This document shows positions 768 through 59,709 of a stretch of 59,842 bases of DNA, in pieces. Positions within the stretch are counted from its first letter, which is position 1, and every line of letters begins with the position of its first letter. The DNA lies in the IMG/VR virus record IMGVR_UViG_3300022924_000019, positions 1 to 59,842 of that record. One strand, written 5' to 3'. The DNA comes from a virus. Its lineage: Duplodnaviria; Caudoviricetes. A model generated the notes under the pieces. The model ran no database searches, was not told the origin of the DNA, and was given only the letters and a program-made list of their open reading frames with translations. The translations under genes were made by a program, and so were the position numbers.

Positions 768-792
768 CCCTCCCTCTCTGAAAGAAATCGAA

Positions 793-1248
793 ATGACTTC
801 CGAACCTCAAGACACCATCCTCGACCGCGAGTTCACCGCCCCGGAATGGGATGAACTGACCGCCGCCGCCATCGCCCACAAGGACCGCTTCGGCATCGAC
901 GCGACCAAGAAGATCATCCGCGACGAGGGCAAGGTGATCATGTTGGTCAACTTCCGGGCGACCCGGAACGAGTCGGCTCGCCTGCGAATGCTGCATCGTT
1001 TCGCCGCCAACATGGCCGCCCCTCAAGGGCTGCCGCCGCTCCCCCGGACTTTCACGGCCGAACAGATCGTCGCAGGCGTTCGGGCAGGCGTCCGGCGGCT
1101 CGCCGAGTACTATCCGGACGATCCCGAGATCGCCGAGATGGCGACCCAGTCGCTCGAAGACCCCGATCTCGAACCCGAAGAAGCCGAGATGTTCGCCAAC
1201 CTCGCCAATCTGGTCTTCGACGAACTGACCAAGATGAAGGGCGCCTAA
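793..1248 (+). CDS. Hypothetical protein
   Basis: Phage-like codon usage from MTSEPQ; the start codon lies within a palindrome copy. Confidence 0.75.
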   Translation: MTSEPQDTILDREFTAPEWDELTAAAIAHKDRFGIDATKKIIRDEGKVIMLVNFRATRNESARLRMLHRFAANMAAPQGLPPLPRTFTAEQIVAGVRAGVRRLAEYYPDDPEIAEMATQSLEDPDLEPEEAEMFANLANLVFDELTKMKGA

Positions 1249-1356
1249 GCCATGAACCGAGAATACGAGCCGGGCAGGGGCGCGATCTTTACCGGTCGAT
1301 AACCATACGCCCTGCATTGTCCTCGGGCGGCGATCCTGCTGCCCGAGGAAACCGAG

Positions 1357-1524
1357 ATGAGTAACTGGAAAAACCCCGCCCGGATCTACGAACACGCGAA
1401 CGCCGCGGCCCGAGAGGCAATCGAGCTGCGGAGAAACGGGCAAGACCTACTCGCGAAGATCCGAAGCCAAGATGCCGCCGCGCTTCGTCAGATGGCCCGT
1501 GAGGCCGTTCAGGAGATGAGATGA
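1357..1524 (+). CDS. Small hypothetical protein (55 aa, not in the ORF track)
   Basis: GAGGA RBS; MSNWKNPARIYEH...; ATGA overlap with the next gene. Confidence 0.65.
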   Translation: MSNWKNPARIYEHANAAAREAIELRRNGQDLLAKIRSQDAAALRQMAREAVQEMR

Positions 1525-1832
1525 GCCTTCGTACCCCCTTCCGCCAAGTCGCCCGTGTGTGGCGTTTCTGGCGCGGTAAGCCCCACATGACGATTTCACG
1601 GTTCGGCAGCCGCACCGACAACCCGAAGATCGTTCTCGGAATCGCAGGCGGTCGCCCCCGATGGGGCTGGGCGACGACGAGTCTTATGACCGAGCCTGAC
1701 ACCGACCAGGGTAACGCCCTGATCGAGATGCACGCCAGAACGCTCAACAAGATCACGGCGATCCCCGTGTTGGACCGGCGCCACCTCCACTCCCTGCAAC
1801 CGGGCGGCACCCGCCTTGAGAGGACGACCTGA
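1521..1832 (+). CDS. Hypothetical protein
   Basis: Translationally coupled at both ends. Confidence 0.6.
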   Translation: MSLRTPFRQVARVWRFWRGKPHMTISRFGSRTDNPKIVLGIAGGRPRWGWATTSLMTEPDTDQGNALIEMHARTLNKITAIPVLDRRHLHSLQPGGTRLERTT

Positions 1833-2023
1833 TGAAGGGCCGCATCGAAGTCGAGCGCGTCCCGGCCGCCCCAGGCGTCAACGTCATGGGGGCCGAACAC
1901 AAGGCTGCCCTGAAGCGCGCTCGCACCGCGCATCCCGAAGAAACGATCACATGGTTCCAAGAGGGCGACGTCGGCGCCTGGGGCGACATTGTGATCCAGC
2001 GCACCGGGGAGTCGGAGAAATGA
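1832..2023 (+). CDS. Hypothetical protein
   Basis: GAGG RBS; coupled start and stop. Confidence 0.65.
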   Translation: MKGRIEVERVPAAPGVNVMGAEHKAALKRARTAHPEETITWFQEGDVGAWGDIVIQRTGESEK

Positions 2024-2484
2024 TTTCCGGCCCCAAGTTCGAGACGATCTACGACGGCCGACCGGACCCCCGGTATCATGATCCCTATCTCACCCGAGGG
2101 ACCTGGGGGAAGTGGTTCATGCACGTCTTCTGGCGGGGCGATAAGGACACGGCTTTCCACGACCACAAGCGCGGCTTCTGGACCTTCCCCCTGATCACCT
2201 ACTACGAACACGTCCTCACCGATCAGGGCGAGATCGCGGAAGTCGTCGTCAAGGCCTTCCGGCTGCACTACCGTCCCGCCCGCTACCGTCACAAGCTCAT
2301 CGGCCGGGTGAAGAGCGGCATCCTCGGGAAATACTGGACCAGGGGCGGTCCGATCTTGACGTTCGGCCGTTGGGACTATCGAGAGCCCGAGCGTGACTGG
2401 GGCTTCTGGGTTCTGGTGCAAGGCAGCATGTATCTTTTCGTTCCGTGGAAAGACTACGTCATTGGTCGCGACAAACCGCTATGA
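2020..2484 (+). CDS. Hypothetical protein, possibly cupin-like
   Basis: GGAG RBS; H-x9-FHDH-x10-YYEH pattern. Confidence 0.65.
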   Translation: MISGPKFETIYDGRPDPRYHDPYLTRGTWGKWFMHVFWRGDKDTAFHDHKRGFWTFPLITYYEHVLTDQGEIAEVVVKAFRLHYRPARYRHKLIGRVKSGILGKYWTRGGPILTFGRWDYREPERDWGFWVLVQGSMYLFVPWKDYVIGRDKPL

Positions 2485-2753
2485 CCAACAAGGCTGAGAA
2501 GGTCGCTTACGTCAAGCGCGAGGGCCAGACCCGGAAGCATCACTGCCACTGGCCGGGTTGCGACCAGCAGGTTCCGCCGGCCAAGTGGGGCTGCACGAAA
2601 CACTGGTTCAAGCTGCCCAAGAACCTCCGGGACAAGATCTGGCTCACCTTCCGTCCAGGGCAGGAGAAGACCTACACCCCGTCACGGGAGTATGTCGCGG
2701 TCGCCCGTGAGGTTCAGACTTGGATCAGCGAGAAATTCTACGGCGGATTGTAG
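2481..2753 (+). CDS. Putative Zn-binding protein
   Basis: HCHWPGC-x10-CTKHW; ATGA coupling. Confidence 0.7.
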   Translation: MTNKAEKVAYVKREGQTRKHHCHWPGCDQQVPPAKWGCTKHWFKLPKNLRDKIWLTFRPGQEKTYTPSREYVAVAREVQTWISEKFYGGL

Positions 2754-2797
2754 TTGACACCGGATTTTCCGGTCACTAGAGTTCGGAAATCACTTCC
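2754..2797 (+). promoter_or_regulatory. Sigma70-type promoter with palindromic operator over the start site
   Basis: TTGACA-17-TAGAGT, then GGAAATCACTTCC at 2785-2797. Confidence 0.8.
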
Positions 2798-2813
2798 TGC
2801 AAGGACGACGGCG

Positions 2814-3245
2814 ATGGGCACTAAAAACAACCCCGGCAAGTTCGACTGCTATCATGCGGCCGAGCCCAACGAACCTCAGTTCACCCTTCTCGCGAGAGAC
2901 CCGACAGCTCCGGGTCTCGTGGCGCTTTGGGCAGCAATCCGCCTGGGGGATAAAGAGGGTGTCGCCCTCGCCATGTCCCGCCTCGCCGAAAGCATCGACG
3001 TCATCGGCAATAAGATCGGCTCCGAGGAGTTGAAAGCCAAGGCTGATGAAGCCCTGGCCTGCGCCAACGCGATGCAGGAGTGGCGGCAGACCCGGACCTA
3101 CCGGCTGTTCCTCACCGGGCCGCTCGGACACGAGTCATACTGGACCACCGTTACGCAATCCTGGGTCGATGAGAACGGCAAGACCGGAATCAAGGACGAC
3201 GGCATGTCCACTTGGCGTGTCGAGCGGATCAAGGAGCCCGGCTGA
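2814..3245 (+). CDS. Hypothetical phage protein
   Basis: AAGGA RBS; MGTKNNPGKFDCY..EPQFTLLARDP N-terminus. Confidence 0.75.
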   Translation: MGTKNNPGKFDCYHAAEPNEPQFTLLARDPTAPGLVALWAAIRLGDKEGVALAMSRLAESIDVIGNKIGSEELKAKADEALACANAMQEWRQTRTYRLFLTGPLGHESYWTTVTQSWVDENGKTGIKDDGMSTWRVERIKEPG

Positions 3246-5565: not shown

Positions 5566-5605
5566 CACCATTTTTCGGTTCACCTAGACATTGGAAATCA
5601 ATTCC
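5562..5605 (+). promoter_or_regulatory. Sigma70-type promoter with palindromic operator over the start site
   Basis: TTGACA-17-TAGACA, then GGAAATCAATTCC at 5593-5605; same spacing as the 2754 promoter. Confidence 0.8.
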
Positions 5606-6166: not shown

Positions 6167-7245
6167 GCCAGGAACTCAGCGCCGAACAGATCAACGCGGT
6201 CTCCCTGGTCGAGAAACTACTTCGCACGGCTGGCCGGTCGCCCGAGGAAGCGGCGATCTATCACGCCAAGGCCCAGCAAGTCATGCTGGACTTCAACCTC
6301 GATCTGGCGACGGTCGAACAGAACAGCGGCGAGTCCGGCAAGCGGATGGACGCCATGCTGAAGGGCGGGCACTTCGAGTGGCAGCGCGACCTCTGGCGGG
6401 ACGTGGCCAGCCTGAACTTTTGCATGTACTTCGCGACCACGGTCTACGAGAAGAAGTTCTCCTGGGCGCCTAACAAGACCAACACCGGCATGGTCAAGGT
6501 CTGGCGGGAACAGCGGTCCCGGCGGCATCAGCTCATCGGTCGGATGGTCAACGTGAAGTCGGCCGAGGTCATGGCCCAGTACCTCGAACAGTCCATCGAC
6601 CGCATCCTTCGGCAGCGCCTGGGCGAGAAGCACTACGGCTTGGTGCAAGAGGCCATCGACCAGCGGTTCACCCGCTCGCAGCTTTACGGCAAATGGGCTA
6701 ACTCCTATCGTGAAGGCGCCGCCGAGGCGATCCAGAGGAAGTTGCGAGCCCGGCGGCAGGAACAACTCAACGAGGAGCGAGCCAAGGTCGAGAAGGCAGC
6801 CGAGGAAGCCCGGCAGCGCGGCTTCGAGAACGCTACGACGGCGACGGCAGTCACTATCGCCAGCTTCAGCAAGAGCGAGAAGATCGCCAACTACGACTTC
6901 AAACACGGTGAAGGCGCATGGGCCAGGGCTGAGGCGGCCGACGTCGCGCGACGGGAGCGCAGCGCCCGCTATCTAGCTGAGATGGAGGCCGCCCGCGCCC
7001 GCCGGATCGCCAATGATCCCGAGTACGCTGCCCGGCTCCGTAGGGAGGCCGAGGAAGACGCCAAGCGGGAAGCCCGCAACGCGCGCAAGCGTGAACGCTA
7101 CTACGAACAGAATGGCTATCGGCGAGCCGAGGGGCCGAGCTACAAGGGTGACTGGTCTGCCCGCCGCGCCGGCTACGAAGACGGCCACGCGGTCTCTATT
7201 GACCTTCAGACGGGCGGGACCAAGACGGCGGGAGCAATCGGATGA
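6163..7245 (+). CDS. DUF2786-domain protein
   Basis: N-terminal VEKLLRTA..PEEAAIYHAKAQQVMLDFNL pattern; GGAGG RBS. Confidence 0.75.
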   Translation: MSQELSAEQINAVSLVEKLLRTAGRSPEEAAIYHAKAQQVMLDFNLDLATVEQNSGESGKRMDAMLKGGHFEWQRDLWRDVASLNFCMYFATTVYEKKFSWAPNKTNTGMVKVWREQRSRRHQLIGRMVNVKSAEVMAQYLEQSIDRILRQRLGEKHYGLVQEAIDQRFTRSQLYGKWANSYREGAAEAIQRKLRARRQEQLNEERAKVEKAAEEARQRGFENATTATAVTIASFSKSEKIANYDFKHGEGAWARAEAADVARRERSARYLAEMEAARARRIANDPEYAARLRREAEEDAKREARNARKRERYYEQNGYRRAEGPSYKGDWSARRAGYEDGHAVSIDLQTGGTKTAGAIG

Positions 7246-7604: not shown

Positions 7605-8260
7605 CCGTGATCGACTCTTTCTCGGGCCGCTACCGGTTCCTGTCAAACTTCTATCCTGAGCCGGTCGAGTGGGCCGGGCTACGGTGGCCCTCGGTAGAAC
7701 ACGCCTTCCAGGGTGCGAAGCACATGGACCACGGATTTCGCGAACTGATCCGCACCGCACGCACCCCCGCCGAGGCCAAGAGAATCGCCCGGTCCCGTCC
7801 GGCTATCTCCGACTGGGACGATTGGCGGGTTCACGTCATGGACGCGCTCCTGCGGACCAAGTTCTCCGAGTACAAGATGCGGCTGGCTTTGTGCCGCACA
7901 GACCCCGCCGAGCTGATCGAAGGCAACACCTGGGGAGACACCTACTGGGGAGTCTGCAAAGGCGTCGGCGAGAACATGCTCGGCCAGCTCCTCATGAAGA
8001 TCCGGTCGGAACCGTTCCTCTGGAATCGAGCCGCCGGAGACTATCCGCCGGGCGCCGTTTATATCGGCCGGGGCACGCCCTATGGAAATCGTTTCGTGAT
8101 CGGCCAGGACGGCGACCGGGAAGAAGTGGTTCGTCGCTTCGAGTGCGAAGTACTGCCGACGCTCGACGTCTCCGATCTGCGCGGCAAGCATCTTGTCTGC
8201 TCGTGCGTTCCGAAAGCCTGCCATGGCCGGCCGATCATGCGAAAGGCGAACCTCCCGTGA
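7601..8260 (+). CDS. NADAR (YbiA-like) domain fused to a DUF4326 domain
   Basis: FLSNFY..SVEHAFQGAK..LRTKF..LIEGNTWGDTYWG..GENMLGQLLM, then VYIGRGTPYGNRF..LRGKHLVCSC.PKACHG. Confidence 0.85.
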   Translation: MTVIDSFSGRYRFLSNFYPEPVEWAGLRWPSVEHAFQGAKHMDHGFRELIRTARTPAEAKRIARSRPAISDWDDWRVHVMDALLRTKFSEYKMRLALCRTDPAELIEGNTWGDTYWGVCKGVGENMLGQLLMKIRSEPFLWNRAAGDYPPGAVYIGRGTPYGNRFVIGQDGDREEVVRRFECEVLPTLDVSDLRGKHLVCSCVPKACHGRPIMRKANLP

Positions 8261-9740: not shown

Positions 9741-9980
9741 GTGGATATCGAAATTCCCGAAGGATCGGCCCGTCTGATCGCAGCGATCATGCGGAAGCTC
9801 GGCGAGACCCGAATCACGATCACGAAAGAGGACATGATCGACCCCGGCCCCTGCAAGATCACGGTCTGGGGCGAGCCGACCGGACAGATCACAGTTCAGC
9901 TCGGAGCCCTCGTAGACCCCGACCAGGGCGATCTCCCCCTGGCCGATTGCGCCTCGCCGCCCTGGCCCAGCGCGAAATAA
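9741..9980 (+). CDS. Hypothetical protein
   Basis: AGGAG RBS; GTG start. Confidence 0.65.
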   Translation: MDIEIPEGSARLIAAIMRKLGETRITITKEDMIDPGPCKITVWGEPTGQITVQLGALVDPDQGDLPLADCASPPWPSAK

Positions 9981-10033
9981 TTTCCGAAAATCGTTCCGCC
10001 TCGGTTGACACCGCAATTCAGTGCGCTCAATGT
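9973..10033 (+). promoter_or_regulatory. Promoter for the gapR/parB-like operon with upstream palindrome
   Basis: CGAAATAATTTCC at 9973-9985; TTGACA(10005)-17-CAATGT. Confidence 0.65.
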
Positions 10034-10061: not shown

Positions 10062-10376
10062 ATGCCCTACCCGGACAACGTCCCCGACGACACCTTCAAG
10101 GTCGACGAAGACGCCATGGCCCAGGCGGCCCTCAAGCTGGCGTCCACCGACGCCCAGGGCCAGCTTAAGAGCTTCTTCGAGCGCATCGAAAACCTCGAAG
10201 AAGCCAAAGCGGCGATCATGGCGGACCTCAAGGAAGTCTACGCCGAAGCCAAGGGCGCCGGGTTCCTCCCCAAGATCATCCGCAAGGTCGTCCGTCTGCG
10301 CAAGATGGACAAGGCCAAGCGCGAGGAAGAAGAAAGCCTCGTCGATATCTACGCTCACGCGCTCGGCGATCTCTAG
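10062..10376 (+). CDS. gapR: GapR-family (DUF2312) nucleoid-associated protein
   Basis: AQGQLKSFFERIENLE..KEVYAEAKGAGF..KIIRKVVRLRKMD..REEEE..DIY closely matches Caulobacter GapR as I recall it. Confidence 0.92.
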   Translation: MPYPDNVPDDTFKVDEDAMAQAALKLASTDAQGQLKSFFERIENLEEAKAAIMADLKEVYAEAKGAGFLPKIIRKVVRLRKMDKAKREEEESLVDIYAHALGDL

Positions 10377-10619: not shown

Positions 10620-11789
10620 ATGAGCAAGACCAACATTCCCGCCGACACCTTCGATACCGAGCTGCTGACCGCCGGCAACGTGCGCAACGCCCTGAAGGGC
10701 GCCGAGGCGACGAAGACCGACTCCTACATGGTCGCCCCCTCCAAGCTGCGCGAGATCCCCGGCTTCAACGTCCGTGTCGAGACCCCGGACTACCTGACCC
10801 ACGTCGCCGGCACCAAGGAGTCGATCAAGGCCAACGGCTTCGACCCGACCAAGCCGATCTCGGGCTTCGTCGGCAAGGACGGCGACGAAGACGTCATCTA
10901 CGTCACGGACGGCTACACCCGCCGCCGGGCCGTGCTGGAAGCGATTTCCGAAGGCTTCGAGATCGCCGCCGTCCCCGTGACCCTGCAACCGGCCGGCACG
11001 TCCGTCGAAGACCTGATGGTCGGCCTCGTGACCGCCAACTCCGGCCGCCCGCTGTCGGTCTACGAGAAGGCCATCGTCGCTAAGCGTCTGCAAGGCTATG
11101 GCTGGGAACCCCAGAAGATCGCCGACAAGCTGACGATCACCACCCGCTACCTCGACGACCTGATGGTTCTGATCGCCGCGCCGTCCAAGGTCCGCAACGC
11201 CGTGATCAAGGGCCAGATCAGCCCGGCCGAAGCCGTCAAGGCGCTCCGCAAGGACGGCGCCAAGGCCGCCGACGTGGTCGAAGGCGCGGTGAAGGAAGCC
11301 GCCGCCCGCGGCAAGACGAAGGCCACGCCCAAGGACGTGAAGGCCGCCAAGAAGAAGGGCGCCGGCAAGGACGTCCCGGCCGGTGAAACGAAGGCCGAAG
11401 GCTTCGGCAAGCGCAAGTCCGGCGTGGCGTGGTCGGCGACGACCAGGGGCGGCATGGTCCATCAGACCGGGACCTACTTCTTCAAGCAGGGCGACGTCCT
11501 GCCCATCGACGATATCCGGCCCGTCCGCCTGTTCCACGACGGCGACTGGTGGAACTTCGTCGATCCGGCGACCAAGGAACACGTCCTGATCGAAGACTCC
11601 ATCGAGATCGAAGTCACGATCCGCATGGTCGCCCCGGCCGAAGAAGCCGCGAAGGACCCGGCGAAGACCGAGGGCGAGGACGACACCTTCGCCCTGCCGG
11701 GCTCCCAGAAGCCCCAGGACGGGCAGGAAGGGCAGGAAGGGACCGATGAAGCCCCCGCCCCCGAAACGCCCGCCGACGACGAACTGTAG
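10620..11789 (+). CDS. ParB-like protein (ParB N-terminal domain plus HTH)
   Basis: FNVR..ESIKANG..YVTDGYTRRRA arginine patch; N..RPLS..EKA; QKIADKLTITTRYL HTH. Confidence 0.82.
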   Translation: MSKTNIPADTFDTELLTAGNVRNALKGAEATKTDSYMVAPSKLREIPGFNVRVETPDYLTHVAGTKESIKANGFDPTKPISGFVGKDGDEDVIYVTDGYTRRRAVLEAISEGFEIAAVPVTLQPAGTSVEDLMVGLVTANSGRPLSVYEKAIVAKRLQGYGWEPQKIADKLTITTRYLDDLMVLIAAPSKVRNAVIKGQISPAEAVKALRKDGAKAADVVEGAVKEAAARGKTKATPKDVKAAKKKGAGKDVPAGETKAEGFGKRKSGVAWSATTRGGMVHQTGTYFFKQGDVLPIDDIRPVRLFHDGDWWNFVDPATKEHVLIEDSIEIEVTIRMVAPAEEAAKDPAKTEGEDDTFALPGSQKPQDGQEGQEGTDEAPAPETPADDEL

Positions 11790-11823: not shown

Positions 11824-11850
11824 AACCGTTCGTGCTAGGAAGTGATTTCC

Positions 11851-14188: not shown

Positions 14189-14220
14189 AAGTTTAGCGAG
14201 TGGAAACTACTTCCGGGTTG

Positions 14221-26842: not shown

Positions 26843-27234
26843 AGGTTTCCACCCTCATCTTCAAAGGTGAGGGCCAGGATGCGGTTCAGGGCCTTGATCT
26901 GAACCGAGAACGGGAGTTTGGCGTATTTCTGGACCAGGGGCCTCTGATCGGCGGCGGCGGAAATGATTTCGGCCGCGAGCAAGGGCGCCTCACGAATGAC
27001 GGTCATGACGAAGGCGTCAAGGTAGCTGCCCCGTCCAACCGCCGAAAGCTGAATGCGCTGCCAGAGAACCCAGAGCTGTTCGATATCGGTGACGTAGTCG
27101 GCCAGGATCGCCGACATGTCCGTCAAGCCGAGTCCCCGCACCGGGAACTTGTGTGTCTTCGGCTCGCCGTCCTTGGGCGTCTGGACAAAGCTGATCTCTT
27201 CGACCAGTGGTTCAAAATCTTCTAGGCCCGCCAT
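26713..27234 (-). CDS. Tail assembly chaperone (gpG-like)
   Basis: Between the major tail and tape measure genes; contains the slippery site. Confidence 0.82.
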   Translation of the reverse strand: MAGLEDFEPLVEEISFVQTPKDGEPKTHKFPVRGLGLTDMSAILADYVTDIEQLWVLWQRIQLSAVGRGSYLDAFVMTVIREAPLLAAEIISAAADQRPLVQKYAKLPFSVQIKALNRILALTFEDEGGNLKNLSATLVSLVKGVLTAEKRETLRSQIVELISKDSTGESEKT

Positions 27235-30282: not shown

Positions 30283-30374
30283 CTCAGAATTCCTTTAGTT
30301 CGGACTTCCATTCCCGGAAGTGATTTCGCGATTTGGCGGCCCCGCCGCTAGGACGGGACCGCCGGTTCGTAGAC

Positions 30375-40916: not shown

Positions 40917-41206
40917 TCGCCTTGCTCCGGAAATGATTTCTCGAACGCCGCCGCCAGACGATCAATCGCCTCGCCCAGTTTACAGGGCAGCTCGACGAGG
41001 CCGCAGTTGACCGCGACCTTCATCAGCGCCTCATCGGCCGTCGCTCCAACCTCGCAGTTGAAGTACTTCGGGTCTTGGTCCGACCGGATGGCCGCAAGCC
41101 AACGCCGATCCCCTACATACCAGCGACCTTGAACCTGTCGGTGAAGCCCGGTCAGGCACAAGAGGTCTTCGGCCAGTTTCTCGTTGATCTCGTCGATGCT
41201 AACCAC
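40913..41206 (-). CDS. Hypothetical protein
   Basis: Coupled ORF; C-terminal KLGEAIDRL helix. Confidence 0.6.
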   Translation of the reverse strand: MVSIDEINEKLAEDLLCLTGLHRQVQGRWYVGDRRWLAAIRSDQDPKYFNCEVGATADEALMKVAVNCGLVELPCKLGEAIDRLAAAFEKSFPEQGE

Positions 41207-44157: not shown

Positions 44158-44179
44158 GAACTTGGCCCCAGACACAATA

Positions 44180-44210
44180 CGAGCCCCGACCCCACCGGAA
44201 TCGGGGCTCG
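44180..44210 (-). terminator. Stem-loop between the SSB and polymerase genes
   Basis: CGAGCCCCGA / TCGGGGCTCG 10-bp stem. Confidence 0.55.
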
Positions 44211-44240
44211 CAAGTCGGAAATGACTTCCGAGACTACGGC

Positions 44241-44898: not shown

Positions 44899-46347
44899 TT
44901 AGAGGTCATCATCCGAGACAGGCTCGAATACTGACCCGACGTCTTCCAGTTCTTCTCGGGTATCCTTGAGAAGAACCAGAGTTGGTCGTCCCGGAGCGCG
45001 ATTCACTAACGGGGCGAGCAAGGATGCCGCTCGACTCTTGGTAAGTCCAGCAGCTTTTAGTTTCTCTTCCGCCTTCGCGGGCGAAATGACTTCGGTGATC
45101 TCGATCTCGTCTTCCGGAACGCCCAGGAACTCAAGCTCCTCGGCCACGGTCGTCGGATCGACCCATTTGCGGTCGCCGTCCCGGCCGTCTACGACCTTCC
45201 AGGGGGTGACGTCGTCACCGTTCTTGTTGCCCCGGTACAGCAGCTCGGCCGCCACGTCCTTGAACCACGCCTCCATCACCTTGCGATAGGTCAGAACCTT
45301 CGCCATCTGGGCCGTAGTCATAGTGCTGGCTGAAGGCGGCGTCAGAGCGAAGCCCCGGTCGTCCAAGAGCTTCTTGGTCGACTCCATGTCGGCCGTGGTG
45401 AGGACGCGGAATTCGCCTTCGATCACCCCGTTGTCGTCGCGCATGACGGTCGCTTCCTCTACGGCGTCGAACACGCCTTCCGTGAGATCGTGGGCCAGCG
45501 CCACCTTGGCAACGCACGTCGCCTTCACCTTGCACCAGCGGCAGCCCTTTGGCGAGGCGGCCCGTGGGGCGTCCGGCTGCCACGCCAGGGCAGCACGAAC
45601 CTTCACGTACTCGGCGAACGCCAGCAGCTCTTCTCGCGTGGTTTCCCAGACGTCGAAATGCGAGAGCCGGGGCTGCGCGATACGAATGACGATCCGCTCG
45701 AAGTGGAAACGGGCGTCGAACTTCAAGAAGAACCCGATTGCGTAGAGCATCGCTTGCGGATTGCCGTTGAACTTCCCATCGACCAGGGCTCGCGGATCGT
45801 TCGCGTCCTCGGCGGCGAAGACGATGTTGTCCGGCGAACGGCCCATCTTCAAGTCGGTGATCGTCAGGACACCCGGCTCGCAGGCAGCGTGGTCCGCCGT
45901 GCCGCCCTGGTTCGGAAGCGGGGTCAGTTCGGAGAAGTAGACCTTGGTCTCGACGAACTGGGTTCCGGGGAGCGTGACGCACCACTTCACGTACTGCCGA
46001 ACGTAGGCCACCATCTCCGAGTCGATCAGGATATCGAACGACTCCCGCCGCTCCTTGATCGTCTTGGTGGTCCCGATCAGAGCGGTCGGGCAGCATTCGT
46101 CGATCCACTCTTCTAGACCCAGCTCGCCCATCTCGCTTTCGGCGAGTTCGTTGAGCCAGATTTCGCCGACCTCATGGCCCACCGTTCCGTAGGCCGCGTC
46201 CTCGCCTGCATCATCTTCGGCAAGAAGGTTCGGGATCAGGGAGCCCGAACAGAAGAGCCACATGTAAGACCCGGACGGAGCGAAGATCGAGTGATCTCCG
46301 AGCGCCTTTTGAATGGCGTCAAGGTCTAGGCCGTGATGCTCGGACAT
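44899..46347 (-). CDS. DUF2800 / Cas4-like exonuclease
   Basis: HSIFAPS..W..C.GS, GTVGH, GTAD, DLKMG, Q..LYA, CRWC..C. Confidence 0.85.
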   Translation of the reverse strand: MSEHHGLDLDAIQKALGDHSIFAPSGSYMWLFCSGSLIPNLLAEDDAGEDAAYGTVGHEVGEIWLNELAESEMGELGLEEWIDECCPTALIGTTKTIKERRESFDILIDSEMVAYVRQYVKWCVTLPGTQFVETKVYFSELTPLPNQGGTADHAACEPGVLTITDLKMGRSPDNIVFAAEDANDPRALVDGKFNGNPQAMLYAIGFFLKFDARFHFERIVIRIAQPRLSHFDVWETTREELLAFAEYVKVRAALAWQPDAPRAASPKGCRWCKVKATCVAKVALAHDLTEGVFDAVEEATVMRDDNGVIEGEFRVLTTADMESTKKLLDDRGFALTPPSASTMTTAQMAKVLTYRKVMEAWFKDVAAELLYRGNKNGDDVTPWKVVDGRDGDRKWVDPTTVAEELEFLGVPEDEIEITEVISPAKAEEKLKAAGLTKSRAASLLAPLVNRAPGRPTLVLLKDTREELEDVGSVFEPVSDDDL

Positions 46348-46436
46348 ACGGAAGTGATTTCCACTTTTGGGGCTTTCGGGTGAGGCTGCCGACCGGTTAT
46401 CCGGGTCGAATTACGGGACTGTGCCCCAGCCTCGCC

Positions 46437-49866: not shown

Positions 49867-49897
49867 GCCCTCGGGAAGTGATTTCCGGGGGCTTTTT
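49867..49897 (+). terminator. Intrinsic terminator built around the palindrome
   Basis: GCCCTCGGGAA-GTGA-TTTCCGGGGGC-TTTTT. Confidence 0.75.
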
Positions 49898-49959: not shown

Positions 49960-50660
49960 CGCAACTGGGAACAATGGGCACAGATTCAGCCCATTTCAGC
50001 CGTTTTCGAGGTCGGAATCCCGACTGCGGGGAACAATCGAACGGTTCTGGCTCTGGAATCCAGCCAGGGCCAGCGTATGCCGGTGTGCCGATTGGATTTC
50101 TGTTCCGATTAAATCGGGTGAAAGCCGAATGGGCACAAAATCGGAACAAATCGAATTCCTTGCCGCATAAGGCTTTGTGAGGAGCTGTTCTGATTGTTCT
50201 GATTGTTCTTATTTATAGGTGGTCCGTGACGCGAGAAAAGTTTTCAGTTTTTCCCCCAGGATGGAGAAAACCGGATTCAAACGGAACAATGAGAACAGTA
50301 CCGAAACGTGGTGTCAAAGCGCCCCGCCGGCTAAAGGGCTCCCAGATCGCTCAGGAGACCCCTAAACGGGCCTAGAAGCCCCTGCATCCCGAAATCACTT
50401 CCAAGGGGCTCCTGAGCCACCGAAAAGCCGCCTTTGATGGAGTCCAGAAGATCTGAGCTTCCGGGGCTCAGCGCCCTCGCCGGCCTCGGCTACCCCTCGG
50501 AAGGGACCCAAAGGCGCCTCATGACCCGCTGAATCGGAACAGCCCATCGCCCGCAACAGCTCGGCGCCTGCTGATGTTTGATGTTGATCAATGGGAACAG
50601 CTCAACGCATGGGGCTACCCGACCAGGGGGCAGGCCCGGCGCCTCACCTGTTCCGATACG
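49960..50660. repeat. Cluster of GGAACA/GAACAAT repeats in non-coding DNA
   Basis: About 10 copies in both orientations, including tandem TGTTCTGAT units at 50186-50209. Confidence 0.65.
50466..50509 (-). other. Putative cos site (cosN plus cosQ-like element)
   Basis: Minus strand reads GGGTCCCTTCCG-20 nt-AGGGCGCTGAGC; GpA-type terminase; position beyond the primase. Confidence 0.7.
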
Positions 50661-51423: not shown

Positions 51424-51576
51424 CTAGCCCTCGACCAGGGCGGGCCTACGCACGGGGGCGCAAGCATGGGTTTTCGCGGCGTAGGCGGAGACGTGGTGCG
51501 TTCCGCACTTGCTGCACGACGACACGACAGGCGGGGCGCCGGTCTTGCGGGGTTTCGGAAGTGATTTCCGTTTCAT
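51424..51576 (-). CDS. Small Zn-finger-like protein (50 aa, not in the ORF track)
   Basis: GAGGAG RBS; CSKCGTHH..HAC. Confidence 0.55.
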   Translation of the reverse strand: MKRKSLPKPRKTGAPPVVSSCSKCGTHHVSAYAAKTHACAPVRRPALVEG

Positions 51577-51992: not shown

Positions 51993-52739
51993 TTAAGACG
52001 TGTAGCCGGTGAAGTCGGCGGGCGCGAGGTTGCCCCGGTAGCCGCGCGGCGAAGTCGTGTAAACCTCGACCGTCCAGCCGTCACCCGAGGGCGCGATCTC
52101 ATAGGCGCATTCGTCCAAAGTAGACGCCTCAAAGGCTGACGTGGCGTCGATGCAGTCGCGAGCATCCGCGAACCGATACCGCATGTCAGTGATCACGAAA
52201 GCCGGGCTTTCCTGTTCGCGGATCGCGGCGCTGTTGATTTTTTCCAGCTCGGCCCAAAGCGAGGCGCAATCGCCGCCCAGGTGGTAGCGGCAGGCCGCAC
52301 GTTCTTCAATTTCGGCGGCGGCTTCTTGGCGGGCCTTCTCGCTATCGAAGAACCGGGCTTCTCCCGCATAGAGCGCCGGGATAGCGGCGACCAGGGCGAG
52401 GAACCCGGCGCGGTATCCTTGAAGTTCAAGAACGCGAGCCCGGCGCGCCGCCCGGTCTTCTTTACGCAGTTCTTCATAAGCCTCGATCACGGCGACCCGA
52501 ACGCCCGGAAGCGATTTCTCCGGAACAAGGGCGCCGCGCTTCTCAGAGGTCAGGTAACGCAGCGTGCACTCAATCGAGCCGTTCCGAAGTTCAAAGACCT
52601 CGCAACGATATTCCGCCGCCCTGGTCGCCGTGCCCAGGGCGCGGAAACGAACGTCTGAGCCGTCTCGCACTTCCCGGCGCGCCGAATGACCGGCGGGCGA
52701 GAGGTCCCAAGAGACAGAGGTTTGAGTTTCGGCGGGCAT
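51993..52739 (-). CDS. Hypothetical protein
   Basis: GGAGCTGAC RBS downstream of a promoter. Confidence 0.7.
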   Translation of the reverse strand: MPAETQTSVSWDLSPAGHSARREVRDGSDVRFRALGTATRAAEYRCEVFELRNGSIECTLRYLTSEKRGALVPEKSLPGVRVAVIEAYEELRKEDRAARRARVLELQGYRAGFLALVAAIPALYAGEARFFDSEKARQEAAAEIEERAACRYHLGGDCASLWAELEKINSAAIREQESPAFVITDMRYRFADARDCIDATSAFEASTLDECAYEIAPSGDGWTVEVYTTSPRGYRGNLAPADFTGYTS

Positions 52740-55677: not shown

Positions 55678-55728
55678 CGTCTACCGCGAACGGAAAACAG
55701 GTGTCAACACGTGACGGAAATTATTTCC
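55678..55728 (-). promoter_or_regulatory. Early promoter with upstream palindrome
   Basis: TTGACACCTGTTTTCCGTTCG..TAGACG; GGAAATTATTTCC at 55716-55728. Confidence 0.78.
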
Positions 55729-56662: not shown

Positions 56663-56713
56663 CACCTAAGCGAACGGAAAACAGGTGTCAACCGGCTACC
56701 GGAAATCATTTCC
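56663..56713 (-). promoter_or_regulatory. Early promoter with upstream palindrome
   Basis: Same 21-mer as 55687-55707; GGAAATCATTTCC at 56701-56713. Confidence 0.78.
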
Positions 56714-56973: not shown

Positions 56974-56978
56974 GGCCG

Positions 56979-57634: not shown

Positions 57635-57704
57635 TCATCTAGGGCCACGCTCTGAGGCATGAGCGCATCGTGTCTCGCCCCTCCCACTCTACAGGACAGG
57701 TCCC

Positions 57705-58004
57705 ATGACCGAGAAAGTACTGAACACCGACCAGGGCGCCGAGATCGCCACCGCGATCCAGGGCGGGCTTGCCATCGTGCAACAGCTCAGCCCCCTGGTC
57801 GGCCTGCTGGGCGGCCCGTCCGCCGCTCTGATCGCCAACCTTGCCGGTGCGTTCGGCGAGGTCGCCTCGAACGTCCTGACCAACGTCTCCGAAGGCCGGG
57901 CGGATCTGGCCTCGACCGACGAGGCGGCCCTGCAAGCCACCCTGGCCGAGCTTCAGGCCAAGAACAAGCTCCTCGGCGACGAGGTTGCCAAGACGGCCGG
58001 CTGA
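57705..58004 (+). CDS. Amphipathic helical protein
   Basis: AGGA RBS; strong codon bias. Confidence 0.75.
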   Translation: MTEKVLNTDQGAEIATAIQGGLAIVQQLSPLVGLLGGPSAALIANLAGAFGEVASNVLTNVSEGRADLASTDEAALQATLAELQAKNKLLGDEVAKTAG

Positions 58005-58030
58005 TCTGACGCAGCCGACTGCATGGCGAG

Positions 58031-58061
58031 ACGGCCCCCGGAGAAATTCGGGGGCCGTTTT
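58031..58061 (+). terminator. Intrinsic terminator
   Basis: ACGGCCCCCGGA-GAAA-TTCGGGGGCCGT-TTTC. Confidence 0.8.
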
Positions 58062-58070
58062 CGTTGGGGC

Positions 58071-58144
58071 CTCGGAGAAATAGGCGCCTCGGAGAAATGT
58101 CAACCGACCCAGCTTGACACCGGTTTTAGGTTGTGGCCTATTCC
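58071..58144 (+). promoter_or_regulatory. Promoter preceded by two CTCGGAGAAAT repeats
   Basis: Repeats at 58071 and 58088; TTGACACCGGTTTT at 58114. Confidence 0.6.
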
Positions 58145-58182
58145 CCATTAACACCGCTTTTCCCTATCAGTGAGGACCGCCA

Positions 58183-58473
58183 GTGCCCGAGACCGAGACC
58201 GCAGCGACCAAGACCCCCAAGCCGAGCCTGAGATCGCTGATCGAATGGCTCGACGTCGGGGAGAGCCATGCCGTCGTGAAGAAGTTCACGCTCGACACCG
58301 TCACCAGCGAGGATATCGTTCGCACCCGCGAACAGATGCACGACACCGTTACGGCTGCTGTGTCTCGGGCGCGGCGGGGGTCCACTCGTGTCTACGAATG
58401 CGAGCTTGGCGACTTCCGCACCACGCGCGGCCACAACCCCATTCTCTGCATCGTCGTTACGAGGAAGACCTGA
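58183..58473 (+). CDS. Hypothetical protein
   Basis: GAGGA RBS; GTG start. Confidence 0.7.
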   Translation: MPETETAATKTPKPSLRSLIEWLDVGESHAVVKKFTLDTVTSEDIVRTREQMHDTVTAAVSRARRGSTRVYECELGDFRTTRGHNPILCIVVTRKT

Positions 58474-58476
58474 ACC

Positions 58477-59709
58477 ATGTCACAGTTTGCGGCGGGCCAA
58501 GCTATCATCTGCATTCGACAGGCCAAGAAGGTTCAGTCGATCCTCGCGGGCGCACCCACGCCGGGTCGGGCCTACGTCGTCGACTCCGCGAGGAAGCGGA
58601 CAGACTCTCAAGGCTACGAGAACTATCCGCCTGTCGTCACCTTACGGGGTGATGCGTCCTGGCCTAACGGATGGAGCGAAGAGCTGTTCCGGGCGGCCAC
58701 GGAAGACGAGATCTGGAAAATCGTCGGCCAGGGGCAGACAGACGGCTTCCCGATCACGCCGGACGCCCCCGACGAAGACGGGTTCACGGTGACCGCGCCC
58801 GAGATGAGCGTCGGCTACACCCTGGCCGACCGACTCGAACAGCTCTGCAAAGAGGCGGGGATCGTCATCGTCTGCGAGGAAGGCACGTTCAAGGCGCGGC
58901 CGAACCGCGAACGCGAGAAGCCCGCCCTGGCCCGCTTCCTGCATGATCCGGCCCGCGGCTACCCGACCGCCGGGCCGGTCAGCCGGGGACTTCGCGTGGT
59001 GATGATCTGGCCCCTGCTGAGCCGTTCGATGCCCGGCAACCAAGCCTACACCGTCGCCGACAGCCGCCGGCGCCAACGCGAGAACAAGAAGGGGCGTGAC
59101 TTCATCGACGAGATCATGCTGAAGGAGCATCCGGGGAAATGGTTTCCGTTCGCCGCTTTCCGCGCCGCCAAGTCCTTCGAGATCACCTTCACGGATGAGA
59201 CTCTGAGGGGCCGCGCGAAGCGCGACCTCGATAAGAGCCTCCACGGGTGGCGAGAAGGACCCGATCTGTTTCGCAGCGGACTCGAATCCGCCTCGCTTGT
59301 CGAAAACCTCTCTTACGCCGACAGCCGCGAGCTTCTGAAGGCGTGGGGCGATATCATGCTCACCCCTCCGTCTTGGACCGATCCCAGTTGGGATTTCTAC
59401 GCCGAGCGATACCGAAAGGCCGGAGACCAGCTTCGCCATGGCGGCGTCAGAATCCCGGTCCTCCCTCCCGGCATCAAGATCAACCGCAACACGCCGTTCC
59501 TCGATCCGAACTGGCTGATCGGCCCGGCCCGTCTGACCATGGCGGATATGAGCAAAGCCGCGTCCTGGCTCGCCGGTCTCACTGCCCGCGCCGACAACCC
59601 GGCGGGCGTGGTCTACGCTGACGAGATTCAGGAATCCCTCTGGGACGCCATGTCGGACCTCGCCCGAGCGGGCGTCCAATGGCTCAGCTACAAGGACGAC
59701 AGGACGCGC
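58477..59709 (+). CDS. 5' part of the 556-aa hypothetical protein (continues at 1-438)
   Basis: GAGGA RBS; stop-free frame for 411 codons up to the repeat. Confidence 0.85.

What the first reader, a model, noticed from the sequence alone, without database searches (positions are those of the whole stretch)
789..59147. Genome-wide lattice of at least 25 copies of the palindrome GAARTNAYTTC
Seen: 13-mers with an exact GAARTNAYTTC core start at 789, 2016, 2785, 9973, 11838, 15247, 16480, 20292, 21898, 23409, 26959, 30316, 33156, 34178, 36849, 39661, 40929, 44217, 45082, 46350, 49874, 50390, 51557, 55716 and 56701. Near-matches start at 5593, 6212, 8084, 10937, 14202, 38675, 52507 and 59135. A rough estimate, assuming about 63% GC, is under 0.1 exact copy by chance. 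About half the sites lie inside coding sequence, including structural genes, and sites recur every 1-4 kb in both orientations. Inference: this is a site for a dimeric DNA-binding protein that covers the whole chromosome rather than one switch. It could be a parS/NBS-like loading array for the phage ParB-like protein, or a stoperator-like silencing network, although mycobacteriophage stoperators are asymmetric and polar and these are not.
Basis: partly seen in the sequence, partly recalled or inferred. Interest (0 to 1): 0.92.

Follow-up and report, generated by a model that had tools for sequence, protein, structure and literature searches.

The report
Phage-wide palindrome array, likely ParB-like sites

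Summary
All 25 exact GAARTNAYTTC sites are present against 0.19 expected. ORFs hold 16 copies against 1.07 under a synonymous-codon shuffle.

The window is a whole Nazgul-like (Casjensviridae) siphophage. The same motif family forms arrays of 15-71 copies in relatives:
- Erythrobacter phage R16L has 28 and Sphingomonas phage Carli 16-30.
- Burkholderia phage BcepNazgul has 19.
- Uncultured records carry 15-71.
- Phage AH2 has 0.

Five alphaproteobacterial genomes hold only 1-2 copies each, so this is not a host regulon box.

Every array-bearing genome whose relevant region is available encodes a ParB-like HTH protein; its best fold match is KorB. Relatives with the same structural and replication genes but no ParB-like gene have no array. 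GapR-like genes are dispensable. Residues of the ParB-like recognition helix co-vary with the motif variant. A site sits about 10 nt upstream of the -35 of the ParB operon promoter in nearly all relatives.

Best reading, at about 0.6: a KorB/Noc-like operator or loading array for the phage ParB-like protein. Binding, spreading and biological purpose are inferred, not shown. I rate it a new variant of a known kind.

The parts
790..800 (.). Exact site GAAATGACTTC. It contains the ATG at 793, in frame with ORF 682-1248, and lies 28 nt after the stop of ORF 438-767.
2017..2027 (.). Exact site GAAATGATTTC. It contains the ATG at 2020 of the cupin-like ORF 2020-2484 and overlaps the stop of ORF 1832-2023.
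2786..2796 (.). Exact site GAAATCACTTC, starting 2-3 nt after the -10-like TAGAGT of the early promoter-like element at 2754. It covers roughly +1 to +13.
5594..5604 (.). One-mismatch site (GGAAATCAATTCC) in the same register behind the promoter-like element at 5562. This is a duplicate promoter-site-leader cassette of the one at 2754.
6213..6223 (.).
8085..8095 (.).
9974..9984 (.). Exact site GAAATAATTTC, ending about 20 nt upstream of the TTGACA at 10005 of the gapR-like/parB-like operon promoter. A site at this place is conserved in relatives.
10005..10032 (+). Promoter-like element (TTGACA, about 16-17 nt, TCAATG) in front of the gapR-like gene.
   Evidence: read from sequence
10062..10376 (+). 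GapR-like gene (Pfam GapR_DNA-bd, E 8.5e-29), first gene of the cassette. It travels with the array in alphaproteobacterial-type relatives but is absent from BcepNazgul and G015, which still have arrays.
10620..11789 (+). ParB-like HTH protein and proposed reader of the motif. N-terminal ParB/Srx fold about 1-125, HTH about 129-250, beta-rich C-terminal domain 268-335, disordered acidic tail ending DDEL.
10938..10948 (.). One-mismatch site inside the parB-like gene.
11839..11849 (.). Exact site GAAGTGATTTC, 50 nt after the parB-like stop codon.
14203..14213 (.). One-mismatch site between ORF 13646-14188 and the tail J-like gene.
15248..15258 (.). Exact site inside the tail J-like gene 14221-16704 (-).
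16481..16491 (.). Exact site inside the tail J-like gene 14221-16704 (-).
20293..20303 (.). Exact site inside ORF 18148-20991 (-).
21899..21909 (.). Exact site inside ORF 20998-22347 (-).
23410..23420 (.). Exact site inside the tape measure gene 22347-26513 (-).
26960..26970 (.). Exact site at the middle of ORF 26713-27234 (-). The same relative place is occupied in R16L and G001.
30317..30327 (.). Exact site in the gap just downstream of the major capsid gene. The same place is occupied in R16L and Carli.
33157..33167 (.). Exact site inside the S49 protease/scaffold gene 32240-33628 (-).
34179..34189 (.). Exact site inside the portal gene 33625-35295 (-).
36850..36860 (.). Exact site inside TerL. 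It is written in the codons GGA AAT TAT TTC of the conserved peptide C-G-N-Y-F. R16L and G015 have GGA AGT TAC TTC (G-S-Y-F) at the same place, and AH2 has GGC GAG TAT TTC (no site).
38676..38686 (.). One-mismatch site in the SNF2 helicase gene at relative position 0.78. The same relative place is occupied in Carli and G004.
39662..39672 (.). Exact site inside the SNF2 helicase gene 38305-39993 (-).
40930..40940 (.). Exact site at the 3' end of ORF 40913-41206 (-), about 14-24 nt upstream of the methyltransferase start (40916).
44218..44228 (.). Exact site between the Gp2.5-like SSB gene and the PolA gene, next to the 16-pair hairpin at 44178-44212. R16L has a site in the same gap.
45083..45093 (.). 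Exact site inside the DUF2800-type exonuclease gene 44899-46347 (-).
46351..46361 (.). Exact site 4 nt upstream of the exonuclease ATG, in the divergent control region.
49875..49885 (.). Exact site 54 nt after the primase stop. It is flanked by a short inverted repeat followed by a T-run.
   Evidence: read from sequence
50391..50401 (.). Exact site, intergenic, about 74 nt upstream of the promoter-like TTGACA at 50317 (-).
51558..51568 (.). Exact site, intergenic in the early region.
52508..52518 (.).
55717..55727 (.). Exact site. Its 13-mer ends 8 nt upstream of the -35 TTGACA (55707-55702, minus strand), so the centre lies near -50.
56702..56712 (.). Exact site in the same register upstream of the -35 TTGACA (56691-56686, minus strand).
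59136..59146 (.).

Best explanation
The palindromes are the binding sites of a phage-encoded dimeric protein, most likely the ParB-like HTH protein encoded at 10620-11789. Each half-site is GAAR(T), and two half-sites flank one central base, as expected for a symmetric dimer.

Some sites sit in fixed register with host-type promoters. One lies with its centre about 50-60 nt upstream of the start point at the protein's own operon promoter, and two more lie in that register at other early promoters. Two sites lie over the start point of early promoters. The protein therefore probably autoregulates and tunes early transcription.

The remaining sites, about one per 2 kb, are mostly inside genes. 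They are kept there by codon choice and even by amino-acid choice. They would load or hold the protein all along the phage chromosome, which the host chromosome (1-2 sites per genome) cannot do.

By analogy with KorB, Noc and ParB, the N-terminal ParB fold may let the protein close as a clamp and spread from each site, so that 2-kb spacing would cover the whole genome.

Shown here: the enrichment; DNA-level selection; conservation and turnover of sites; co-occurrence with the ParB-like gene; the fold; and the helix-motif covariation.

Inferred: binding, spreading, any nucleotide dependence, and the purpose (regulation, organisation or protection of phage DNA).
For: 1. Enrichment and DNA-level selection.
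- 25 sites against 0.19 expected.
- 16 in ORFs against 1.07 under the synonymous shuffle. The same holds in four relatives: R16L 17 v 0.54, Carli 13 v 0.55, G001 15 v 0.88, G002 11 v 0.72.
- At one conserved TerL peptide the site changes symmetrically with the lineage's motif variant: window GGA AAT TAT TTC, R16L and G015 GGA AGT TAC TTC.

2. The motif family is lineage-wide.
- R16L 28, Carli 16 (30 as GGAAA-N3-TTTCC), AH2 0.
- G001 22, G002 19, G003 15, G004 7, G005 9.
- BcepNazgul 19.
- G015 71, G018 33, G017 17, G016 14.
- All are Nazgul-like by shared genes.

3. Link to the ParB-like gene.
- Of 65 ParB-anchored IMG/VR loci, 14 carry arrays of at least 6 copies.
- BcepNazgul, G015, G017 and G018 have ParB-like genes.
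- Three relatives with window-type PolA, helicase, exonuclease and capsid genes but no ParB-like gene have 0-1 sites in 22 kb.
- None of the 50 TerL-anchored bacterial loci of 5 kb or more (of 64 found) has more than 2 sites or a ParB-like hit.

4. Own-promoter site. In the window the site lies 20 nt upstream of the -35 of the gapR-like/parB-like operon. 12 of 13 array loci have a site 41-105 nt upstream of the gapR-like start, and in 11 of those 12 it lies 16-35 nt upstream of a TTGACW. Across 17 array sequences, 13 sites lie 19-26 nt upstream of a TTGACW, against about 0.4 by my rough estimate.

5. Recognition helix. All 16 array-linked ParB-likes in the alignment have T/S-x-R-[Y/H/F]. BcepNazgul has S-D-R-Y-L-Y-D, and the second paralogue of G015/G018 has T-R-W-V-G/A-D. 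GAAAT-type arrays go with R-H-x-x-N in two separate lineages, the G001 group and Carli. GAAGT-type arrays go with R-[Y/F/W]-x-x-D. These positions align with S174-N178 of Caulobacter ParB, and N178 contacts parS (PMC7383237, passages read).

6. Fold. The AF2 model has pLDDT 84.6. The best Foldseek hits are KorB 8QA9 (E 7e-9, TM 0.71 on the target), then ParB, Noc and Spo0J.

7. The sites are phage-specific. Five alphaproteobacterial genomes of 2.9-8.8 Mb hold 1-2 GGAARTNAYTTCC each, against 10 in the window (counted).
Against: - No binding was tested.
- Phylogenetic non-independence. On the ParB tree the 14 array-less close relatives form one clade (SH-aLRT 90), so presence or absence of the array may be a single event. 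The covariation rests on only two independent GAAAT lineages.
- ParB-like is not sufficient. AH2 and 13 IMG/VR loci with 40-50% identical ParB-likes have no array. Two of them (L217, L227) even carry the Arg. Thirty-seven more distant ParB loci and three other ParB-bearing phages (Delftia RG-2014, ST79, Curvibacter PCA1) have none.
- The window itself has the R-Y-L-D-D helix, yet 34 of its 50 half-sites are GAAAT, so the simple N/D code is imperfect.
- In G015, G017 and G018 the closer ParB paralogue has K-H-V-R-D.
- The nucleotide-binding GERRxRA motif is degenerate. Only G, one R and A are invariant, so a CTP clamp cycle is doubtful.
- Pfam HTH_ParB scores below its cut-off (16.7 v 22.6 bits).
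- Other core genes shared by all these phages cannot be excluded as readers by co-occurrence alone.
Confidence: 0.6

Rival explanations
1. Another phage protein reads the sites, for example the small terminase-like DUF1441 protein, the Cro-like protein upstream of the primase, the primase, or an unrecognised small protein. The ParB-like gene merely travels with the lineage.
For: Co-occurrence is confounded by phylogeny. Many core genes are shared by all array phages. ParB-like is not sufficient for an array.
Against: - AH2 shares TerS-like (41%), Cro-like (32%) and primase (51%) genes at identities like those of array phages, yet has 0 sites.
- The Cro-like recognition helix varies freely among array phages while the motif is conserved.
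- Within 10 kb of parB, no family other than ParB and GapR is present in all array loci.
- Relatives with the same replication and head genes but no ParB-like gene lack arrays.
Confidence: 0.12
2. The sites mark places of a DNA transaction rather than of stable binding. Examples are sequence-specific methylation or other base modification, strand nicking as in T5- or M6-type phages, or cleavage by a phage nuclease.
For: - Every complete array phage checked has an adenine methyltransferase next to PolA: phrog_799 in the window, with homologues in R16L and G001-G003, and MT-A70 in Carli.
- A Topo VI-A-like protein (phrog_6247) is present in the window and several relatives.
- ParB-like activators of phage thymine dioxygenases exist (PMC13229309; abstract and section 8 read).
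- I recall from memory, and did not check, that phages with this replication module can carry sequence-specific nicks.
Against: - The methyltransferases at that locus are non-homologous, so they are unlikely to share an 11-bp target.
- The Topo-like gene is missing from R16L, Carli and BcepNazgul by tblastn.
- The dioxygenase-associated ParBs lack a DNA-binding domain (abstract of PMC13229309), whereas this protein has an HTH. No TET/JBP-type dioxygenase was found; the only hit was a cupin-like 'cysteine dioxygenase'.
- Target sites of modification or cleavage have no obvious reason to be enriched 100-fold, evenly spaced, and fixed in register with promoters.
- Nicks on both strands of a palindrome would break the DNA.
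Confidence: 0.08
3. A host protein binds the sites (host-factor hijacking).
For: The motif is conserved across phages whose proteins are only 40-50% identical. Some sites lie next to host-type promoters.
Against: - Five alphaproteobacterial genomes carry only 1-2 copies each.
- Arrays occur in phages of Burkholderia (Betaproteobacteria), Erythrobacter and Sphingomonas (Alphaproteobacteria).
- The motif variant differs between phages of related hosts: R16L has GAAGT-W, Carli has GAAAT-S.
- 50 related loci in bacterial genomes and MAGs, several of them titled as Alphaproteobacteria, have no arrays.
- The true host of the window is unknown, so its genome was not tested.
Confidence: 0.06
4. The GapR-like protein encoded directly upstream of parB reads the sites.
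For: Among ParB-anchored loci the GapR-like gene was in 14 of 15 array loci by blastp and in 0 of 14 array-less close relatives. In two loci, L223 and L224, tblastn found no GapR-like gene. Their upstream ORFs look alike by eye, and only L223's was tested (hhalign probability 76%). The conserved site lies at the promoter of the operon it heads.
Against: - BcepNazgul (19 sites), G015 (71) and G018 (33) have no GapR domain, in a search whose positive controls G001 and G002 scored E 1e-35.
- R16L-type (GAAGT) and G003-type (GAAAT) GapR-likes are nearly identical in the DNA-binding part.
- Ten loci with a GapR-like gene and a distant ParB have no array.
- Host GapR has no discrete consensus (PMC13408042, passages read).
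Confidence: 0.03
5. The motif acts without a protein, as an RNA or DNA hairpin, or is a by-product of codon or peptide repeats.
For: The 13-mer could pair as a 5-6 bp stem with a 3-nt loop. One copy (49875) sits between further inverted repeats before a T-run.
Against: - Half-sites GAAGT/ATTTC would give G-U in one orientation and A-C in the other. The transcribed strand shows both about equally in minus-strand genes (read).
- Sites occur in all three codon phases.
- The synonymous shuffle removes them.
- The flanks are not conserved.
Confidence: 0.02

Closest known systems
KorB and its OB operators on IncP plasmid RK2
   Same: - A ParB-family protein with an N-terminal ParB fold plus HTH. KorB chains are the best Foldseek matches of the model (8QA9, E 7e-9).
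- An odd-length palindromic site with one central base.
- About a dozen sites dispersed over a replicon of about 60 kb, some next to promoters and some far from any (recalled; PMC11790492 seen as search listing and abstract only).
- Control of its own operon.
   Different: - The replicon here is a phage that looks virulent: no integrase, ParA or repressor was found.
- There are 25-71 sites, most of them inside genes and evenly spaced.
- No KorA-, TrbA- or IncC-like partner was recognised.
- The GERRxRA motif is degenerate.
- Sequence identity to KorB is only 16-17%.
Noc and its binding sites on the Bacillus subtilis chromosome
   Same: A ParB paralogue that binds many dispersed palindromic sites rather than one centromere. 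Noc structures are among the fold matches and among the profile matches.
   Different: - Noc is a host protein that acts in cell-division control and needs a membrane-targeting N-terminus (recalled; not tested here).
- Its site is an even-length palindrome.
- There is no link to promoters.
Chromosomal and plasmid ParB-parS partition systems, including the dispersed centromere sites of phage-plasmid N15 (recalled)
   Same: The same protein family by profile (Caulobacter ParB 6T1F, E 3.4e-7). Palindromic sites. A phage precedent for several dispersed sites (N15, recalled and not checked).
   Different: - No ParA partner was found in the window.
- There are tens of sites over the whole genome instead of a cluster.
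- The CTP motif is not conserved.
Stoperators of cluster A mycobacteriophages
   Same: Roughly 25-35 copies of a 13-bp site spread through a phage genome, including within or between late genes, read by one phage protein (recalled).
   Different: Stoperators are asymmetric, oriented with transcription, bound by the immunity repressor, and found in temperate phages. Here the sites are symmetric, and the centre base is not linked to gene strand. No integrase or repressor was found.
ParB-like transcription regulators VirB (Shigella) and BisD (ICEclc)
   Same: ParB-fold proteins that load at specific sites and act on promoters at a distance (search listing and abstracts only).
   Different: They use few sites per element, sit on a plasmid or ICE rather than a phage, and CTP dependence has been shown for them.

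Membership tests
ParB/KorB/Noc family (ParB-CTPase fold plus HTH) | N-terminal ParB/Srx fold | tested here: met
   - PHROG phrog_1033 'ParB-like partition protein', E 5e-49.
- The profile matches ParB, Spo0J and Noc chains over positions 59-230.
- AF2 model with Foldseek hits to KorB, ParB and Noc.
- F49, N50, R52, G98, R101 and A104 are invariant in 24 relatives.
ParB/KorB/Noc family (ParB-CTPase fold plus HTH) | Central helix-turn-helix DNA-binding domain | tested here: met
   - Pfam HTH_ParB is only sub-threshold (16.7 v 22.6 bits).
- The profile aligns through the ParB recognition helix.
- The fold matches the KorB and ParB DNA-binding domains 1R71 and 6S6H.
ParB/KorB/Noc family (ParB-CTPase fold plus HTH) | Conserved nucleotide-binding motifs (GERRxRA, ENxxR) and CTP binding or hydrolysis | tested here: inconclusive
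   - The window has G-Y-T-R-R-R-A and A-N-S-G-R.
- Across relatives only G, one R, A and the N are invariant.
- Nucleotide binding cannot be tested here. ParB folds that bind other NTPs or none are known (PMC12704722 passages read; PMC12260392 search listing only).
ParB/KorB/Noc family (ParB-CTPase fold plus HTH) | Specific binding of a dimer to a palindromic site | not testable with these tools
   Indirect evidence only: co-occurrence, a site at its own promoter, and helix-motif covariation.
ParB/KorB/Noc family (ParB-CTPase fold plus HTH) | C-terminal dimerisation domain | tested here: inconclusive
   The model shows a beta-rich domain at 268-335, then a disordered tail. There is no Pfam hit for the C-terminal part scanned, about residues 261-389. 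The C-terminal parts differ greatly among relatives.
ParABS partition system | ParA ATPase partner | tested here: not met
   No ParA-like family was found among the 59 different window proteins scanned with Pfam or PHROGs. Not every small ORF was scanned.
KorB-type global operator network | Many dispersed palindromic operators, promoter-proximal and distal, including at its own operon | tested here: met
   25 exact and about 8 near sites. Fixed register at five promoter-like elements, including that of the parB operon.
KorB-type global operator network | Clamp-locking co-repressor (KorA or TrbA type) | not tested
   No candidate was recognised. The GapR-like neighbour gave no verdict in a complex prediction; see Tried and rejected.
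Stoperator network (cluster A mycobacteriophages) | Asymmetric sites oriented with transcription | tested here: not met
   The core is palindromic. The centre base against gene strand gave Fisher p 0.07-1.0 in 8 of 9 genomes and 0.029 in R16L, uncorrected.
Stoperator network (cluster A mycobacteriophages) | Temperate phage with an immunity repressor | tested here: not met
   No integrase or CI-type repressor was found in the window proteins scanned. BcepNazgul's annotation lists none.
Host regulator box | Box present many times in host-type genomes | tested here: not met
   1-2 copies in each of 5 alphaproteobacterial genomes or MAGs. The actual host of the window is unknown.

The most novel reading that the evidence does not exclude
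In a whole clade of apparently virulent Nazgul-like phages, a ParB-fold protein has been turned into a 'self-marking' phage chromatin system. Between 18 and 71 evenly spaced, phage-only loading sites are written into coding sequence by codon and even amino-acid choice. These sites let the protein load and spread over the entire phage chromosome. In alphaproteobacterial phages it would work together with a co-encoded GapR-like ring. The result would be to organise, regulate at long range, or shield phage DNA during lytic growth. This would be the first genome-wide ParB-type array in a non-plasmid, non-chromosomal replicon, and a case of protein-DNA specificity co-evolving at dozens of sites at once (GAAAT-S against GAAGT-W, with matching helix changes).
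Probability: 0.25. Interest if true: 0.85.

Novelty: new variant of a known kind. Interest (0 to 1): 0.72.

Why it matters
Orphan ParB-like proteins are very common in phages, and their roles are mostly unknown (PMC12704722, passages read). This finding gives one large group of them a concrete, testable DNA target. That group includes cultured phages with harmless hosts, Sphingomonas phage Carli and Erythrobacter phage R16L, as well as the long-known BcepNazgul.

If the link holds, it extends KorB/Noc-type multi-site systems to lytic phage chromosomes. It shows selection writing dozens of protein-binding sites into coding sequence. It also offers a natural series for studying how a ParB-type helix and its sites co-evolve: GAAAT-S and GAAGT-W variants, at 15 to 71 copies per genome.

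Practically, the motif is a strong sequence signature for recognising this phage lineage in metagenomes.

My searches of the held library found no description of these arrays: the exact motif, ParB-like plus phage plus palindromic, ParB plus phage plus CTP plus KorB, and BcepNazgul plus repeat plus ParB. The paper on related Erythrobacter phages does not contain 'palindrom'. Subscription-only papers and supplementary files were not searchable.

Tried and rejected
Searches that led nowhere:
- Megablast of window 1-25000 against cultured phages: no match.
- A single-protein search for ParB relatives in IMG/VR: none confirmed. An alignment query later worked.
- The generic promoter/terminator scan added little: 4 promoter-like hits against 2.4 expected.

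Ideas considered and dropped:
- RNA hairpin: the orientation of G-U against A-C is mixed.
- Methyltransferase target: the enzymes at that locus are non-homologous.
- PolA-type replication module as the correlate: three loci have it without an array.
- Topo VI-A-like protein, the Zn-binding protein at 2445-2753, and the protein at 2754-3245 as readers: each is missing from several array phages.
- Strand polarity of the centre base: none consistent.

Other ParB-bearing phages. Delftia RG-2014, Burkholderia ST79 and Curvibacter PCA1 show no dispersed palindrome. Agrobacterium 7-7-1 shows a different, local one.

Complex prediction. ParB-like residues 1-252 with the GapR-like protein gave no verdict (score 0.00, controls not run). 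This says nothing either way.

Sequencing runs. One DNA run, a leaf litter metagenome and possibly the source, holds the stretch as contigs only. No RNA holder is listed. Read laying was not used, because contigs cannot show ends or nicks.

Limits on the evidence:
Arrays in unrelated phages cannot be excluded from them. Among the stretches returned, every multi-copy one that I followed up belonged to this lineage, and I did not follow up all of them.
- Rows dropped before counts: 14 of 64 TerL-anchored loci shorter than 5 kb, and ParB loci under 38% identity from the helix alignment and tree.
- Gene calls are my own GC3-based longest-ORF calls. Starts are approximate.

Full report
**What the window is.** The 59,842-base window is a whole IMG/VR virus record, estimated 98% complete. 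Its first 133 bases recur at its end, because the head 60-mer is found again at 59710. It therefore reads as a circular or permuted assembly of about 59.7 kb.

Gene content and order are those of Nazgul/AH2-like siphophages (Casjensviridae):
- a lambda-like head module and a long minus-strand late operon;
- a replication module of PolA, DUF2800-type exonuclease, Gp2.5-like SSB, VRR-NUC, SNF2 helicase and primase;
- two early regions.

The major capsid protein is 42-46% identical to those of Burkholderia phages AH2 and BcepNazgul, Erythrobacter phage vB_EliS-R16L and Sphingomonas phage Carli. No integrase, ParA or CI-type repressor turned up among the 59 different proteins scanned.

All 25 exact GAARTNAYTTC cores are present. 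Dinucleotide-preserving shuffles give 0.19, the reversed control pattern gives 0, and Markov simulations give 0.14. The same holds in four relatives.

The eight near-matches are genuine one-mismatch sites. That class, 12 sites, also exceeds its expectation of 4.06. The flanks add only a weak cG...Cg, so this is a free-standing 11-15 bp palindrome and not part of a longer repeat.

Sites are spaced more evenly than chance in the window, R16L, Carli and G015, but not in G002 or BcepNazgul.

**The array is a lineage trait under selection at the DNA level.** De novo word counts found the same motif family in several relatives:

| Genome or record | Copies |
|---|---|
| R16L | 28 |
| Carli | 16, or 30 as GGAAA-N3-TTTCC |
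| AH2 | 0 |
| G001, G002, G003, G004, G005 | 22, 19, 15, 7, 9 |
| BcepNazgul | 19 |
| G015, G018, G017, G016 | 71, 33, 17, 14 |

Two collection-wide pattern scans supplied the uncultured records. Two stretches of record G014 are exact substrings of NC_005091.2, so G014 is BcepNazgul. All records for which I compared genes belong to the same phage lineage.

Two variants exist. GAAAT-S-ATTTC occurs in the G001 group and Carli. GAAGT-W-ACTTC occurs in R16L, BcepNazgul, G015 and others. The window mixes GAAAT and GAAGT half-sites.

Some places are conserved: just downstream of the capsid gene, the middle of ORF 26713-27234, the SSB-PolA gap, and a TerL peptide. Others turn over.

The TerL site is the clearest case. 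The conserved peptide C-G-x-Y-F is written GGA AAT TAT TTC in the window, and GGA AGT TAC TTC in R16L and G015. Both half-sites change together, and the residue changes from Asn to Ser. AH2 has GGC GAG TAT TTC and no site.

**It is not a host box.** Five alphaproteobacterial genomes or MAGs of 2.9-8.8 Mb hold 1-2 copies of GGAARTNAYTTCC each, against 10 in the window. Arrays occur in phages of both Beta- and Alphaproteobacteria. Fifty related loci in bacterial genomes and MAGs have at most 2 sites. The window's own host is unknown; its only holding run is a leaf litter metagenome.

**Who reads it.** Within 10 kb of the ParB-like gene, only two families were present in all or nearly all array loci: the ParB-like protein (15 of 15) and a GapR-like protein just upstream (14 of 15 by blastp; the L223 ORF is a probable divergent homologue, hhalign 76%). 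The GapR-like family was in 0 of 14 array-less close relatives.

GapR is nevertheless dispensable. BcepNazgul, G015 and G018 have arrays but no GapR domain, in a search whose positive controls scored E 1e-35. GapR-likes of phages with different motif variants are nearly identical in their DNA-binding part. Host GapR has no discrete consensus (PMC13408042, passages read).

The ParB-like gene is present in every array genome where the region is available. Three relatives with window-type PolA, helicase, exonuclease and capsid genes but no ParB-like gene have 0-1 sites in 22 kb.

The protein has the ParB/Srx N-domain and an HTH. The profile hits ParB, Spo0J and Noc chains. The AF2 model has pLDDT 84.6, and its best Foldseek hit is KorB 8QA9.

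Its recognition helix carries an invariant Arg in all 16 array-linked sequences aligned, whereas 13 of 15 array-less relatives have another residue there. The next residue and the fourth after the Arg go with the motif variant. H...N goes with GAAAT in two separate lineages. Y/F/W...D goes with GAAGT, including BcepNazgul and a second paralogue in G015/G018. These positions align with S174-N178 of Caulobacter ParB, and N178 contacts parS (PMC7383237).

**Promoter register.** The window has nine copies of an early promoter-like word, TTGACAcc-N3-TTTTC.
- At two of them (2754, 5562) the site begins right after the -10 and covers the start point.
- At two others (55707, 56691) the 13-mer ends 8 nt upstream of the -35.
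- At the promoter of the gapR-like/parB-like operon it ends about 20 nt upstream.

Twelve of 13 array loci have a site upstream of that operon, and in 11 of those 12 it lies 16-35 nt before a TTGACW. Over 17 array sequences, 13 sites lie 19-26 nt before a TTGACW, against about 0.4 by my rough estimate. A regulator's site at its own promoter is the usual signature of autoregulation, and it points to a protein of this operon.

**Caveats.**
- Nothing was bound to anything.
- Array-less ParB relatives form one clade, so presence or absence may be one evolutionary event. The covariation has only two independent GAAAT origins.
- ParB-like is not sufficient: AH2, 13 close and 37 distant IMG/VR loci, and three other ParB-bearing phages have no array. 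Two array-less proteins keep the Arg.
- The window has the 'GAAGT-type' helix but mostly GAAAT half-sites.
- The GERRxRA motif is degenerate. A CTP-driven clamp cycle, and with it 'spreading from every site', is analogy and not a result.
- The purpose of the roughly 20 intragenic sites is open.

**Verdict.** The feature is real, strongly selected and lineage-wide. It is most likely the operator or loading array of the phage's ParB-like protein (about 0.6). It works like KorB-OB or Noc-NBS, but it cannot be filed as a ParABS partition system (no ParA) or as a stoperator network (symmetric, non-polar, no repressor). I rate it a new variant of a known kind, with interest 0.72.

Noticed in passing
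window, whole length (for example 10, 1704, 2337 ... 59719): A second over-represented word is GACCAGGG/CCCTGGTC, with 42 copies. ORFs hold 37 against 11.8 (max 21 of 200) under the synonymous shuffle. It is strongly strand-polar: 33 GACCAGGG against 9 CCCTGGTC on the + strand, whatever the gene direction. R16L, Carli, G001 and AH2 have 0 copies. This looks like a Chi- or KOPS-like polar octamer, perhaps host-specific.
   Followed up: partly
window ORF ends: 11789, 29986, 33625, 37604, 44241, 44899, 46491: Seven of 85 ORFs end in an acidic tail of the type D-D-[D/E]-L/I: the ParB-like protein, ORF 29986-30282, portal, TerS-like protein, Gp2.5-like SSB, exonuclease and ORF 46491-46847. The primase ends in KDDL. 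ParB-likes of relatives, with or without arrays, end similarly. This suggests a shared docking peptide for one hub protein.
   Followed up: partly
window 1-133 and 59710-59842: The ends of the record overlap by 133 bases, which indicates a circular or permuted assembly. IMG/VR lists the record as linear.
   Followed up: partly
window 2754, 5562, 50266, 50303, 52806, 55693, 56677, 58114, 58148: There are nine copies of an early promoter-like word, TTGACAcc-N3-TTTTC (0.71 expected). The elements at 2754 and 5562 are duplicates of a promoter-site-leader cassette that runs up to the start codon.
   Followed up: partly
window 8272-9186 (+): A Topo VI-A/Spo11-like 'DNA topoisomerase' (phrog_6247, E 3e-93) lies in the early region. 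It is shared with G001-G003, G005 and several IMG/VR loci, but not with R16L, Carli or BcepNazgul.
   Followed up: partly
window 40236-40916 (-); L009 12363-13097: Non-homologous adenine methyltransferases occupy the same slot beside PolA: a phrog_799 enzyme with an NPPF motif in the window, R16L and G001-G003, and MT-A70 in Carli.
   Followed up: partly
window 10062-10376; alignment A4: Phage GapR-likes carry a conserved acidic N-terminal motif (D-D-T-F-x-V-S/D-x-E) ahead of the GapR DNA-binding domain.
   Followed up: no
G015 (L394-L397), whole record: This 64.5-kb relative has 71 GAAGTNACTTC sites, one per 0.9 kb and denser at 50-61 kb. It has two ParB-like paralogues with different recognition helices.
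   Followed up: partly
L205 (Agrobacterium phage 7-7-1) 24248-36083: A different palindrome, TACAAAT-N-ATTTGTA, occurs 5-7 times in the early region. At least two copies lie at annotated promoters. This phage also has separate GapR-like and ParB-like genes.
   Followed up: no
L005/L006 (AH2) record 57547-58012 and 198-215: Twelve copies of AGGTCCGAA are clustered after the primase gene and at the genome ends. They are iteron-like and are not a dispersed array.
   Followed up: no
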